DNA from: Diplonema papillatum
Lineage: Eukaryota
Direction: 5' to 3'
Length of the DNA: 64,000 bases
Assembly: GCA_030068145.1 (NCBI GenBank)
Contig: JAPJBO010000372.1
Span: forward strand, 141,284-205,283
In this document: piece by piece, positions 16,323-23,400 of the stretch
Layout of the letters: the number at the start of each line of letters is the position of its first letter
Numbering within the stretch: position 1 is the stretch's first letter
The notes under the pieces: model-generated
The model's database searches: none
Told to the model about the DNA's origin: nothing
What the model saw: only the letters and a program-made list of their open reading frames with translations
Made by a program: the position numbers and the translations under genes

Positions 16323-17473
16323 TTGTTGCCGAAAACCAAGGCTTCCGACCTGAGGCAACGCACGTTTCGAGCTGAGCACAGTCGGATGGTTGTTGCGGGG
16401 CCAACGTGTACCATCCTTGCTGCGAAGTCTCCTCTCAGACGTAGTTGCAGATTTTCTTTTCGTATCGATGCCACAGGTTCTCGCAGGCCGTGTTAAATAG
16501 TACGGCTGACTGTCGCCTCGTTGTGAACACACCGCAAGCGACGAAGAAGCGGTTCCGCGGTGACGATGATGGCTGGGTAAATCCACTGAGAGGCGTGTCA
16601 TGACGTACAAATGACATCCAGCTGTCGGTGCGTGAAAACACGCAGTAGTCGGGTACATAGTGAGCAGTGCACAGGTTAGGCTGTCTCGTATAGACAGCGC
16701 CAGAGGATCGCCATGCATGGTGAGAGACCCCATCGTGTTTTGAAACAGGAAGAAAAACAACACCAACCGGAAAACAAAAGGGAAAATGAAGACGGACGCA
16801 TCGCCGATGGATGACCACTGCACGAGTGCTCTGTCCGGATTCCCGGTCAGCGAGTGTGTGCGCGGGGCAGCGGAGGCACCGTGTGTCATGGCAGGCAATG
16901 ATGAGAGGAGTCTTGACTCGCAAGGACTGAGCTTGCTCAGCTCGGTGATGGATACAGAAGGCGAGTCGAGGGAAGACTTCTCGTTCGGGTTCGTGCAGCC
17001 GAAGGCAGCCGAACGGTCCTTCGTTGCGAACACGCCGGAGGTTAGAAAGAAGAGGTCCCGTGACGACAACTGCAGTCCTTCCACTGGTGGCTTGTCATCA
17101 AGTACCGCTGGCGCTCAGTTGTCACCGCAGACGCCGAGCACCGACGGAAAGAAGACACGCGTGCGCACAGAGTGCATCACAGGCGTTCGCATCAACGAAG
17201 TCGGAAGGGTCGTCCCCATCAGCCGTACCACCGCCCGCGCCCCGAGCGTGTCCAGCGACAGCGTCAACATGCCCGCGGTCAAGAGGAAAGATGGTGTCGA
17301 GATCAGGTTTCTTCCCCGCCCACCCGCGCCCCCCTCCTTCTTGTGTTAAAAATCAGTAGTTGGCAGCGTACTACATGAAACTTACCAAAAGCAGATGAGT
17401 TCCGCTAGTGCACAAACACACTGCGGAACAGCAGCCACCAAAGCTGGCTCCCCCGTTCGCAGGAGATATATAT

Positions 17474-17950
17474 GAGACGATGCCAAAACCCCCCCCCCCC
17501 CCCTTTGCACTAATAAAATATTTTTTGACGTCACTCCATACTGGCCCCGAACCCCCATCTGTGTGGCCCAAAACGGGTCCCAAACGGTTTTTGACGGGCT
17601 GAGTTGAGGTAAAGGGGTCTCTGAAGGCCCACGAATGGGCCCAGGTGGGCCCAGGTGGGCCCCGGAGCGGGCTCTCAGTGCGAGGGGGTGTGCCCCCAAA
17701 ATGGGGTCATTTTCAAAGCCTCGCCACTACTCAAGCTAGTCAAACACCTTCTGGCCTCCAGCGGGAAACCCAGACTACACAACGACAAGATCGGCTGTGT
17801 TCCGCTGTAGATAGCCACCAGCGGGTCCTCTTGAAGCCGAAGAGTGTTCTCAGGGGTCACAGATAGCCCTACTTGGCCACCCCGCCTGCAGCGCCTGCAG
17901 TGGGCAGGCACACATTGTAAATAGAGTGGGTGCAGCAGGTGCACCCTGCC
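17474..17950. repeat. Left TIR of the long-TIR transposon
   Basis: Inverted match to 19988-20460; contains a C14 run at 17490-17503. Confidence 0.6.
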
Positions 17951-18015
17951 TTTACCAGCAGTACTAATTAAGAATACAGGTTGACCCAGGAAAACGGAAA
18001 CTAAGAGAGGGGAAA

Positions 18016-19893
18016 ATGCCAAAGATCACGGGTCTGGAGTTCGTGGAGTCATCGGTGCGAGCAATGCAGAAGTTATCGCCGTTTCATGAGGAAACAAGAC
18101 GTGGTCAGTCCATGCAGAGACGACTCGTAGCCAGCAGGACCTTTTGTGAAAAGGTCTCTGGTGACGACCTGATCGGTTTCTTTCTCGCCCTAATGACAGA
18201 GGAGGAGAAGGTTGACATCTGGAAGCGCCTTTCTGGTAGGCTTTCAGAAGCCTTCAACAGCCTTGACGACGAGGCGAGCCGGCGACGCATCGTGAGCGGT
18301 TTGGACTGGGCACGTGCCCGGTACAGGGCTGTTGGAATGGTCGTGGGTGACAATCTCTGGAAGAACCGGGGAAAGGCTGCCGAGATTGGCGTTGGCGGGA
18401 GGCCCACAGTTGTCACACCAGAGATGCGTGAAAAGGTATCTCAGGAGCATGACCAATTCTCCACGCCAACATCAAGGGTACTGAAGAGGCTTTCAAAAGA
18501 AGAAGAAGAAGAGCCTGTCACGGCACACAACCTCTTGGTACCGTACCGTCTTGTGTACGACGAGAGCGACCTGCAGGATGAGGTGTCGTACACTACGTAC
18601 CGGCGCATGCGGAATCCGAAGTTTCAGCATCTGTCCCGACGAACTGACGTGTGTGACATCTGCGATGCGGGGGAGACCGTCAAATCTCAGATGCGGCGAT
18701 ACATTGACGCGAACCGCCAGCACCTGACCTCAGCGCATTGGTACAACGCCAACAACCCGATGTTCCTCACCGCTTGCCTGTATGAGAAGATGATCCCGGA
18801 ACGGGTAAGAAAGTGCATGAGCGGCTTCTTGCACCAGCTCATGGAGGTCCAACACCACACGACCAGTGCAGAACGACAACGGAGCGCCTACAGAGCGCAC
18901 TACACATCACCACCCGCCGGGACTGTGGTAGTCACTGTCGACTTCAAGCAGAAGGGAAGGCTGCCCATGTTGAAGCAGGAGCCCGGAAAGCTCTTTTACA
19001 GCCAGGGTGCCTTCTCACTGCTCGGTTTCGGCCTACACTGGACCGAAGATGTAGTTGTCAGGCGGCACCATGTGGATGTGCTTCTTCGCACGCATAATCA
19101 GGACTCCATGGTATTCGTGCGTGCTTACGAATTGGTCAAGAACCGCCTCCCGCAGGACCGCAAGGTCATCTTTTGGATGGACTCTGGTCGGCACTTCCGA
19201 TCGGTGCTTTCTGTTAGTCGTCTCCTGCTAGATCCTGACACACAGTCCATCAACTTTTTTGTTGGAGGGCACGGAAAGAATGACCGGGACCAGCACTTCG
19301 GAGCCATCAGCAGGAAACTGGAGATGGTGTCCAAGTCCACAGACATTCTGAACCTCGGGCAAGTTAAAAAAGCCATCGAACAGATCCGAAACACAACGGC
19401 GCCCAAGCTTTGCCTTCGCAGCCAGGTTGCTGAATTTGAGGTGCTCGACATACCGAACCTCATGATGATTTCTTCTTTCGAGCGAGACCCCCTGACAGGT
19501 GCCTTATCGGTACACGAGCACTCTGGCGACAATGGCTTTCTGCTCAAAAAGCGAGTCCACGTCATAAAGTTCAAGTTTGTTGCCAAGGTTTCGGACAAAC
19601 TGCCACTGGGCGAGTCAGATACTGACTGCTCAAGGTGTTCAGACGACATTGGCTCAAGTGCTTCCAGTGATGAACAGGAGACCGTGGCCGAGAAGATGCA
19701 GAAAAAGAGGACAAAGAAGAAAGAGATGTTTGCCAAGATGGCAGACCAGGAAATAAAAAACAGGGCCCGGGGAAAACATCCACCCAAGGAGAAGCCATCA
19801 GCAAAAGCCCAGGCCAAACCGCGTCCAAAGACATCCAAGTCCAGTGAACGGAGTTCAGATGCAGCCCCTCCAAGCAAGCGTCAGAAAAAGTGA
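18016..19893 (+). CDS. Putative transposase (625 aa) of unrecognised superfamily, with a lysine-rich NLS-like C-terminus
   Basis: This uninterrupted 1.9-kb ORF fills the space between the TIRs, in a genome whose other genes have introns. Candidate acidic residues are spaced like a DDE/D triad: VTVDFKQKG at about aa 303, IFWMDSGRHF at about aa 388 and GHGKNDRDQHF at about aa 421-423 (roughly DD35D spacing). The ORF also has a CDICD motif and a KKRTKKK...KRQKK tail. Assignment to a superfamily is not possible by eye. Confidence 0.5.
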   Translation: MPKITGLEFVESSVRAMQKLSPFHEETRRGQSMQRRLVASRTFCEKVSGDDLIGFFLALMTEEEKVDIWKRLSGRLSEAFNSLDDEASRRRIVSGLDWARARYRAVGMVVGDNLWKNRGKAAEIGVGGRPTVVTPEMREKVSQEHDQFSTPTSRVLKRLSKEEEEEPVTAHNLLVPYRLVYDESDLQDEVSYTTYRRMRNPKFQHLSRRTDVCDICDAGETVKSQMRRYIDANRQHLTSAHWYNANNPMFLTACLYEKMIPERVRKCMSGFLHQLMEVQHHTTSAERQRSAYRAHYTSPPAGTVVVTVDFKQKGRLPMLKQEPGKLFYSQGAFSLLGFGLHWTEDVVVRRHHVDVLLRTHNQDSMVFVRAYELVKNRLPQDRKVIFWMDSGRHFRSVLSVSRLLLDPDTQSINFFVGGHGKNDRDQHFGAISRKLEMVSKSTDILNLGQVKKAIEQIRNTTAPKLCLRSQVAEFEVLDIPNLMMISSFERDPLTGALSVHEHSGDNGFLLKKRVHVIKFKFVAKVSDKLPLGESDTDCSRCSDDIGSSASSDEQETVAEKMQKKRTKKKEMFAKMADQEIKNRARGKHPPKEKPSAKAQAKPRPKTSKSSERSSDAAPPSKRQKK

Positions 19894-19987
19894 AGTCGCC
19901 ATCTCCACCTCTTGGTTCTTTTGCATTTTTCCACCTTATATTCTGCGTTTTCCTGGTAAGCACTGTGTTCTCAAAAGCGGGTGAAGC

Positions 19988-20460
19988 CGGATTCTAGGCA
20001 GGGCGCACTTGCACACCGCACATTCTAAGCGTGTGCCTGCCCACTGCTGGCGCTGCGCACATGGGGCTAACTGTGACCCCCGAGAGCATTCTTCGGCTTC
20101 AAGAGGACCCGCTGGTGGCTATCTACGGCGGAACACAGCCGATCTTGTCGTTTTGAAGTCTGGGTTTCCCGCTGGAGGCCAGAAAGTGTTTGACTAGCTT
20201 GAGTAGTGGCGAGGCCCGAAAATGACCCCATTTTGGGGACTCTCCCCCTCGCGCTCCAGGGGCCTACCTGGGCCTACCTGGGCCCACCTGGGCCTATTCG
20301 TGGGCCTTCAGAGACCCCTTTACCTCGACTCAGCCCGCCAAAAACCGTTTGGGAACCGTTTTGGGCCACACAGGTGGGGGTTCGGGGCCAGTATGGGGTG
20401 ACATCAAAAAAAGTTTTATTAGTGCAAAGGGGGGGGGGGGGGGGGTTTTGGCATCGTACC
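19988..20460. repeat. Right TIR of the long-TIR transposon
   Basis: Inverted match to 17474-17950; contains a G-run at 20429-20445. Confidence 0.6.
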
Positions 20461-23400
20461 ATATAGATCTATAAGTCTCACAGACAACATCCCCTTTTGG
20501 CCCAAGCCTTGAAACGGTAACATACCCGGCTTCACTAGAGTGCCGGCTCCCGGCGAGCTACGAGGGAACAGCAAGCTTTCCACACCCTCACACACCGTTG
20601 GCTTGCTGTTTCGAACCGTCGGTCACTCGAAGTTTGCGGTCGCACGACAGTCGTTGCTGCCCGCACTTGAGAAAACAATGCACCTCCTCAGTCAGGGAGG
20701 CCTCGGGAAACCTGCGCGCAACATCTAGATCTTAGAACACTTTCGATACTATTCGGACGAGAGCTACCATTTGTACGTCCACCTGGTCACAGAACATTCG
20801 CGCACGGTCGCACGGCGTGCATCCGTGGCCTAGAGAGTCCTCGGACTTCAGACTAAAACGTGTTGGGCACACACCAAGCACGTTCTTACCTCCGAAACAA
20901 ACCTTTCTACAGGACAACACCGTCGGCACAGCTTGGCCCAAAAGTCAATCTGTCGAGAAAACTTGCCTTTGACGACGACATGATTGCGGCTCTGGAGCAA
21001 CTCTCGATTTGGAAGAAGTAATTATTTTCACAAGCCTCAATGCCATACTAGCCTCAAAGGTAGCCAGACGGCGCAAAACGAAGCAAGAAAACACCGTCGT
21101 TTCTCCATTCCTTTTATTTTTAACTTGACCCGTCCTTCCTCTCATGCGCGAGTCTGGTTTCTTTTTATATTTTATTATTGTCACGTCCTCCGCACCTGCT
21201 GCAGCGACCTCGTGTAGGGGTTGGACGATACAGCTTCCGTTTCAGTTATTTATGTCTTTCAACAAAACTACGCATTTCTTTCGGACGGTCCGGGGCAGCA
21301 ATCAGAGGCAGGCACCTTTGAGCGCAGGAAAAGTGCTCCGGGAAAACCTGCCGAAGACGGTGCAAAAAAGAATTCCCCCGCCCAGCAACGCAGAGGAATC
21401 CTGGTACGGGTTCTGTCAGTGGAGTTCCCGATGCATCGCAAGACTGCAACGCAACGGGCCTGCAGGCCGAGTCGCGAAGTTTCATAACCTTGCACTTCAG
21501 CAAAAATACGCGTATGGCGTGGACGTCGGCGTTCCTTCCGACAAGGAGATTACCCGCAAGGCATTATTACCACCGTTCATATATGATGCAATGGTTATAT
21601 CCCCAGCCTTCTGAACTCAACCCAGCACTCACTCAACTCCCGGATTTTCATAGCAGCACAGACTTGTCCCCGAATTGTGTTGACAGGTTCAAATATGTTC
21701 GCATCGTAAGTATGGTGCAGGAAAGCTTGCATCTCGGCGCCATAAACCATACAGGGAGAGAAGGAACACGTTACAAAACTTGATTGCCCACTCCGTAGGT
21801 CTGCAACATCCGCAATCACAACACAGAAGGCCAGGTGCCTTTCAAATGGTACCTCTGCTTGCGCTCCCGCCCCGGAGCGATCTTCCGCTTATCCTTCTTA
21901 TCTTGTTCTTTCACCTGCCCTCCCCGCCATTCTTCTGCAATGCCCACAACCAAGACCATAGGAGACGGAATCCACCGAAAGACGTCTTACACTGAGGTAC
22001 TGTGTGAACAGGTTGAAAAGATGGAACGCCACGTTTCTTTGAAGCGTTCCGTTTGTCCCCGTACCCAGAACCCTGAAAGCGTCTGCGTCAACCAAGATTC
22101 CTTCCGGAAATTAAGGCCAGTTACGTTAAGAAGTTCATTCGTGCTGAGCCAAACAGTAATATCGTGTTTGGAGCCACAGCCGAGCTGCGTCCCGGTCTGC
22201 TCTTGACCTACGGGAACAGCATGACTGCTAACCCACAGCAACGAAGTACGTGCATGGGGGATGCTTCAACGCTCTTCACCATCTCATACGTCAGCTGAAG
22301 AAATACGCCACACGCACCTCCGGCACCCGCTGGCTCAAGGGCGCTCTCAGTACTCAAACATCTCAGGAAAAGAACGGCCCTGCATCAAACGGCCGCCCTA
22401 CTACTCTACCTTTCCGTGCCACTGCACACGGGGAGCCTATCCTCCATGTTGTGCTCTTCTTTTCAGTCCTCTTTTTTCTTCTTTCGTTTAGTTTTTCTTT
22501 CGAACTTCAGCTTGTTTTTCACGTAACGGTCAGCTCTCAATGAAAAACCCTGCCTAAATTCTAAAAGTCTTTGGTCATCAAAAAATCGAGCGAAATGCAA
22601 AAAAACACAGGCAGTCCTGCTGGACTGCATTTCATGGTTTGGGAATGGCCAAAACATCAATCTGCTAAGTGTTCAGAAGCGAGCTTGCAGTACGCAGGCC
22701 GCGGGAGGAGCAAAAGTGGGGACTGCGGCTCCGTTTTGAGCGCAGGTTTTTGTCCTACATATAGCCCTGATTTAATTCTCCCGAATGCTCCAACTGAAGG
22801 ACTATAGAGACAATAGGGAAAAGTTAATTGCTGATCCACTGAGAAAGTAGTATCACGGAGTTTTTCTTTTTTATTTTTTCCGCGTCTCAGAAGTTTGATA
22901 GAATTCTAGAACCGTATTTAAGAAACAGAAAACAAAGTGTGCAAAGAACAGAACAATAGAATGACATCGAGAAGGGGTGCGGAAAAAGAGAAGGGCCAAC
23001 ACGGCGTAGCCAGCAGATGGAGGACAGAACTCGTCGTCTTTTTTTAAGAATTCATTGTTCGCACTAGACTCTCTTAGCATCTGAAAAAGAAAAACCAGGG
23101 TTCAGAATGCGGCGAGAAAAGTGTTCAAAATCTGCTGTCCTGCACGGCGTTGTGCCTCGTGTTTCTATCACACGGTTTCCCGGCTCGCACCCACCGGAAC
23201 TTTTTCTTCAGCTCCCCCTTGCGTTGATGAGTTCCAGTACCAAGGAAGACTTTCAGTTCGAGGCAGGGGCGCGCCTGATTGAATGGAAACATTCATAACC
23301 TACGCCGAAGCTGTACACTTCCTGTTTCCCCTTAGCTTGCTCTTCCTGACAACAACGCATCCTCTTGTTCGCCGTTTTTGTCCGTATCGCCACGCAGGAA

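What the first reader, a model, noticed from the sequence alone, without database searches (positions are those of the whole stretch)
17474..20460. Candidate new long-TIR DNA transposon encoding a 625-aa intronless protein
Terminal inverted repeats of about 480 bp at roughly 90% identity flank a single ORF that nearly fills the internal region. All clearly cellular genes in this window are interrupted by introns. The protein shows no family signature I can recognise by eye. It has three acidic positions spaced about 85 and about 35 residues apart, which is consistent with an RNase-H-fold DDE/D transposase, and a basic NLS-like tail. Long TIRs occur in MULE, Tc1/mariner-like and some poorly described protist families, so classification is open. 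The roughly 10% divergence between the arms suggests an old insertion.
Basis: partly seen in the sequence, partly recalled or inferred. Interest (0 to 1): 0.7.

Follow-up and report, generated by a model that had tools for sequence, protein, structure and literature searches.

The report
Sola2-type DNA transposon in Diplonema
This is a real, structurally complete cut-and-paste DNA transposon in the marine protist Diplonema papillatum; it belongs to the already described Sola2 transposon group, so it is a new family rather than a new kind of element.

Summary
A 2,987-bp element (17474-20460) has terminal inverted repeats of 552 and 544 nt. The outer 440 nt are about 88% identical. One intact 625-aa ORF fills the interior, and ATAT flanks both ends.

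A profile of the family matches the published Sola2 transposase of Dictyostelium fasciculatum at 100% probability (E 3e-40). Sola3, Sola1 and Zator cores score far lower.

Sola2 elements make 4-bp AWWT target duplications, which ATAT fits. Related elements, including two 99.3%-identical copies at different loci of another eukaryote, show the same ATAT duplication. They also share homologous ends: GRG-N-CG-R-TG-SC-AAAA-poly(C/G).

"New" holds only at family level. The "old insertion" inference from arm divergence is unsound. Unusual features are the long repeats and a right terminus reading GGT. Copy number and mobility in this genome could not be tested.

The parts
17470..17473 (.). Left target-site duplication, ATAT
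   Evidence: Read directly from the sequence. ATAT also flanks the ends of related elements L049, L056, L057, L060 and L064. It fits the published Sola2 AWWT duplication.
17474..18025 (+). Left terminal inverted repeat, 552 nt
   Evidence: Identity to the right arm is 88-91% over the outer 400 nt and lower in the inner part.
17474..17513 (+). Conserved terminal motif GAGACGATGCCAAAA followed by C15 and TTTGCACTAA; presumed transposase recognition and cleavage end
   Evidence: Homologous to the ends of L056/L057 (GAGGCGGTGCAGAAA-Cn), L064 (GAGAGGATGCCAAAAG) and L059/L060 (GAGTCGATGGCAAAA-Gn). The function is inferred.
18016..19893 (+). Transposase ORF, 625 aa plus stop, without introns
   Evidence: The 489-aa NCBI model is 100% identical to residues 137-625.
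18016..18405 (+). N-terminal helical region (residues 1-130) ending at the conserved G-R-P motif; probable DNA-binding part
   Evidence: The model shows helices with pLDDT of about 85-90. The region is conserved in homologues from residue about 10 and aligns with DFa-2 from residue 89. The DNA-binding role is inferred.
18646..18858 (+). Invariant D211-x-C213-x2-C216 ... H281 motif; candidate zinc site
   Evidence: These columns are invariant in 39 sequences. The same RTDxCxxC...H is present in Sola2_DFa-2 and PPa-1. Metal binding was not tested.
18913..19350 (+). RNase H-like catalytic core (residues about 300-445) with D309 (18940-18942), D389 (19180-19182) and D425 (19288-19290)
19681..19890 (+). 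Basic C-terminal tail (residues 556-625; 24 K/R), NLS-like
   Evidence: pLDDT is low apart from helix 557-584. Nuclear targeting is inferred.
19917..20460 (-). Right terminal inverted repeat, 544 nt; its terminus reads GGTACGATGCC on the minus strand
   Evidence: It is the only one of 15 ends read that does not start GAG or GGG.
20461..20464 (.). Right target-site duplication, ATAT

Best explanation
[quoted passage not shown] Shown: the 625-aa protein is a Sola2-type DDD transposase with an RNase H-like fold, and the element ends at 5'-GAG...ACC-3' between two ATAT tetranucleotides. Inferred from how DDE/D transposases work: the protein enters the nucleus through its basic tail. It then binds the conserved roughly 25-nt termini (GRG-N-CG-R-TG-SC-AAAA-poly C) through its N-terminal helical and zinc-motif region. 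D309, D389 and D425 coordinate two divalent metal ions, which cut both ends and join the 3'-OH ends to an ATAT target with a 4-bp stagger. Repair of that stagger gives the ATAT duplication. This copy has an intact ORF with every family-invariant residue, but its right terminus is atypical (GGT). It may therefore supply transposase while being poorly mobile itself.
For: [quoted passage not shown]
Triad and zinc motif: invariant in 39 sequences.
Sola2 homology: hhalign of the family profile against Sola2_DFa-2 gives probability 100%, E 3.1e-40, over 342 columns. BLASTP gives 32% identity over 159 aa, E 2e-13. A profile of the 11 closest sequences scores PPa-1 at 121.7 bits and DFa-2 at 101.1 bits. 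On matched 130-aa cores the scores are PPa-1 70.8, DFa-2 64.0, Sola3 23.8 or less, Sola1 0.4 or less, and nothing for Zator.
Target duplication: Sola2 is published as making 4-bp AWWT duplications such as ATAT (PMC3627910), and ATAT is found here.
Mobility of the lineage: L056 and L057 are 99.3% identical over 2,357 bp at two loci with unrelated flanks, each bounded by ATAT|GAG...CTC|ATAT. L064, L059/L060 and L049 show the same pattern. The terminal 25 nt are homologous across these families.
Transcribed relatives occur in the D. ambulator transcriptome.
Against: No second copy or empty site from the D. papillatum genome could be inspected; look-ups for the encoding contigs returned nothing. 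Mobility in this genome is therefore unproven.
ATAT is a palindrome lying in an AT-dinucleotide run, so from this copy alone the duplication cannot be told apart from an extension of the inverted repeat. The call rests on the related elements.
The right terminus is GGT rather than GAG or GGG.
I had only 125-131-aa core fragments for Sola3 and Sola1, and the type Sola2-1_HM core scores just 7.9 bits against the 11-sequence profile. The Sola2 label therefore rests on the dictyostelid elements that Bao and Jurka classified as Sola2.
Catalysis, DNA binding and zinc binding are all untested.
Confidence: 0.88

Rival explanations
1. It is a Sola-superfamily element but not Sola2. On this view the diplonemid clade is a separate subgroup, either a fourth Sola lineage or closer to Sola3, that merely shares ancestry with the dictyostelid elements.
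For: The 11-sequence profile scores the type Sola2-1_HM core at only 7.9 bits and the sea-urchin Sola2 core at -1.6, while the C. remanei Sola3 core scores 23.8. TIRs of about 550 nt contrast with the 12-22 nt in DFa and PPa elements.
Against: The dictyostelid elements published as Sola2 score 64-71 bits on the same core and 101-122 bits at full length. DFa-2 itself links to Sola2-1_HM at 27-28 bits against 2-9 bits to Sola3. The AWWT duplication and the 5'-GAG terminus are shared with DFa-2.
Confidence: 0.1
2. It is a domesticated or host gene derived from a transposase, kept for a cellular function, and the inverted repeats are only remnants.
For: The ORF is intact and annotated as a gene. 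Relatives are transcribed in D. ambulator. Only one 90%-identity protein cluster from D. papillatum was found.
Against: Both TIRs are complete, with conserved termini and a target duplication. The identical protein is listed at two loci. Close relatives are multi-copy with truncated members, 14 in the P0009 cluster on separate contigs, and one family has near-identical copies at different loci. All catalytic residues are retained.
Confidence: 0.04
3. It is a dead fossil copy: a Sola2 element that can no longer move, whose ORF is intact by chance or encodes an inactive protein.
For: The right terminus is GGT, unlike 14 other ends read. The arms carry indels and fall to 54% identity at 17874-17973. 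No other copy lies in 64 kb.
Against: A 1,878-nt ORF stays open and keeps all ten family-invariant residues. A second locus encodes an identical 489 aa, which argues for recent duplication. The terminal trinucleotide varies (GAG or GGG) in a family found at different insertion sites in two metagenomes.
Confidence: 0.3
4. It is not a mobile element at all, but a chance or assembly-generated inverted duplication around an ordinary gene.
For: The genome paper warns of artificially duplicated repeat regions in the assembly.
Against: The repeat match has E 2e-164. The arms are diverged with indels, which assembly duplication would not produce. The same TIR-ORF-TIR architecture with homologous termini is found in independent assemblies.
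Confidence: 0.01

Closest known systems
Sola2 transposons of dictyostelids (DFa-2 of Dictyostelium fasciculatum and PPa-1 of Polysphondylium pallidum; Bao & Jurka 2013, PMC3627910)
   Same: The transposase is homologous from the N-terminal G-x-G-R region through RTDxCxxC...H to the DDD core, including DFK(E/Q), FWxD(S/G)xxHF(K/R)S and HGKxDxDxHF. Both make a 4-bp AT-rich AWWT duplication. Both start 5'-GAG: the DFa-2 sequence begins GAGCATTT and ends ...GGCTC.
   Different: Core identity is only about 32%. TIRs here are about 550 nt against 12-22 nt. This element is 3 kb with one intronless ORF and no Fanzor passenger, whereas the dictyostelid elements are 10-15 kb chimeras with multi-exon genes. 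The host is a euglenozoan, not an amoebozoan.
Sola2-1_HM (Hydra), the reference Sola2 element of Bao et al. 2009; class E.12 in Majorek et al. 2014
   Same: Same superfamily. The broad family profile matches its RNase H core at 48.1 bits, and it hits 58 of the 170 retrieved relatives at E below 1e-3.
   Different: There is no direct pairwise similarity to the Diplonema protein, and it scores only 7.9 bits with the 11-sequence profile. It is a distant branch.
Unnamed elements in ENA assembly ERZ25333188 (L056, L057, L064) and marine or other metagenomes (L059, L060, L049)
   Same: The transposase is 33-41% identical. The architecture is the same: long TIRs (166-196 nt), a single ORF and an ATAT duplication. 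The terminal 25 nt are homologous, including the homopolymer tract.
   Different: These are undescribed sequences from unidentified organisms, so they are not a 'known' family in the literature. Their TIRs are shorter and less diverged (96%).
Retroviral integrases and Tc1/mariner transposases (PFV integrase 4bac, Mos1 4mdb, SB100X 5cr4)
   Same: They share the RNase H-like catalytic fold and a short spacing of about 35 residues between the second and third acidic residues. They presumably share two-metal chemistry.
   Different: There is no sequence-level relationship: no Pfam rve, DDE_3 or Transposase_1 match and no PDB sequence hit. The duplication is ATAT rather than TA, and the N-terminal domains differ.

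Membership tests
Sola superfamily, Sola2 group | Transposase homologous to reference Sola2 transposases | tested here: met
   hhalign against Sola2_DFa-2 gives probability 100%, E 3.1e-40. The 11-sequence profile scores PPa-1 at 121.7 bits and DFa-2 at 101.1 bits. Matched cores score 64-71 bits, against 23.8 or less for Sola3 and 0.4 or less for Sola1. The broad profile scores Sola2-1_HM at 48.1 bits.
Sola superfamily, Sola2 group | DDD catalytic triad in an RNase H-like fold | tested here: met
Sola superfamily, Sola2 group | 4-bp AT-rich target-site duplication (AWWT) | tested here: met
   ATAT lies at 17470-17473 and 20461-20464. It is ambiguous in this single copy because ATAT is palindromic. 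The same ATAT bounds L056, L057, L064, L060 and L049, which have unrelated outer flanks.
Sola superfamily, Sola2 group | Terminal inverted repeats | tested here: met
   Arms of 552 and 544 nt. They are much longer than in the published DFa and PPa elements.
Sola superfamily, Sola2 group | Repetitive in the host genome, with evidence of transposition (several copies, empty sites) | tested here: inconclusive
   The identical 489-aa product is listed under two locus tags on two contigs, but the second locus could not be fetched. There is no further copy in the window. The full genome was not searchable with these tools.
Sola3 / Sola1 | Best transposase match is to Sola3 or Sola1 reference cores | tested here: not met
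   Sola3 C. remanei scores 23.8 bits, Sola3-1_HM 0.1, and Sola1 0.4 or less, against 64-71 bits for the dictyostelid Sola2 cores. Only core fragments of Sola3 and Sola1 were available.
Tc1/mariner | Transposase with DDE_3, Transposase_1 or HTH_Tnp_Tc3 domains and a TA duplication | tested here: not met
   No Pfam match for the protein or for ten distant relatives. The similarity is only at fold level. The duplication is ATAT in relatives whose outer flanks differ.
MULE / Mutator | MULE transposase domain, 8-11-bp duplication, long insertion between the second D and the E | tested here: not met
Ginger / retroviral-type integrase (rve) | Pfam rve (PF00665) integrase core | tested here: not met
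Zator | Homology to the Zator-1_HM transposase core | tested here: not met
   No score in any comparison.

The most novel reading that the evidence does not exclude
The Diplonema element and its relatives (L001-L003, L056/57, L059/60, L064) form an undescribed long-TIR lineage of Sola2. They share a conserved end signature, ATAT | GRG-N-CG-R-TG-SC-AAAA-poly(C/G). On this reading the lineage is still active in D. papillatum, given the two loci encoding an identical protein. It would be the first cut-and-paste family characterised in diplonemids and a candidate native tool for insertional mutagenesis in this emerging model organism.
Probability: 0.3. Interest if true: 0.45.

Novelty: new member of a known kind. 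Interest (0 to 1): 0.3.

Why it matters
It turns two 'hypothetical protein' gene models of the only sequenced diplonemid genome into an identified transposase, and shows that the annotated model lacks 136 N-terminal residues.

It adds Sola2 to the DNA transposons recognised in D. papillatum. The genome paper named only TATE, MULE and Helitron and called for a rigorous transposon annotation. Its supplements mention neither Sola nor these genes.

It gives a concrete end signature and target site that can be used to mask and count this family in a 52%-repeat genome.

If the family is active, a compact 3-kb single-ORF element with defined ends would be a practical starting point for transposon tools in diplonemids. 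For transposon biology in general it is an incremental result.

Tried and rejected
- Pfam scans of the protein, of ten distant relatives and of ten flanking ORFs found nothing.
- A profile search of PDB sequences found nothing meaningful.
- The AFDB50 fold library was unavailable.
- The search for related loci in the prokaryotic genome collection found no relatives.
- A second homologous-protein search with the alignment returned only the same four proteins.
- Look-ups of the contigs encoding the D. papillatum protein failed for both the 489-aa and the 625-aa forms, so genomic copy number and empty sites could not be examined.
- The original Sola and Yuan-Wessler papers are not held. The supplement image alignment of Sola2 transposases was unreadable, so I used the sequences in supplement 3 instead.
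- The SRA runs behind L001-L003 and the organism of ERZ25333188 could not be identified.
- L004 (P0015) showed no clear flanking TIRs.
- I first considered TA, TATA or an 8-bp duplication at the ends. I rejected these after the L056/L057 comparison fixed the duplication at ATAT.
- I first read the GGT right terminus as two crippling substitutions. I softened this after finding GGG termini in the P0153 family.
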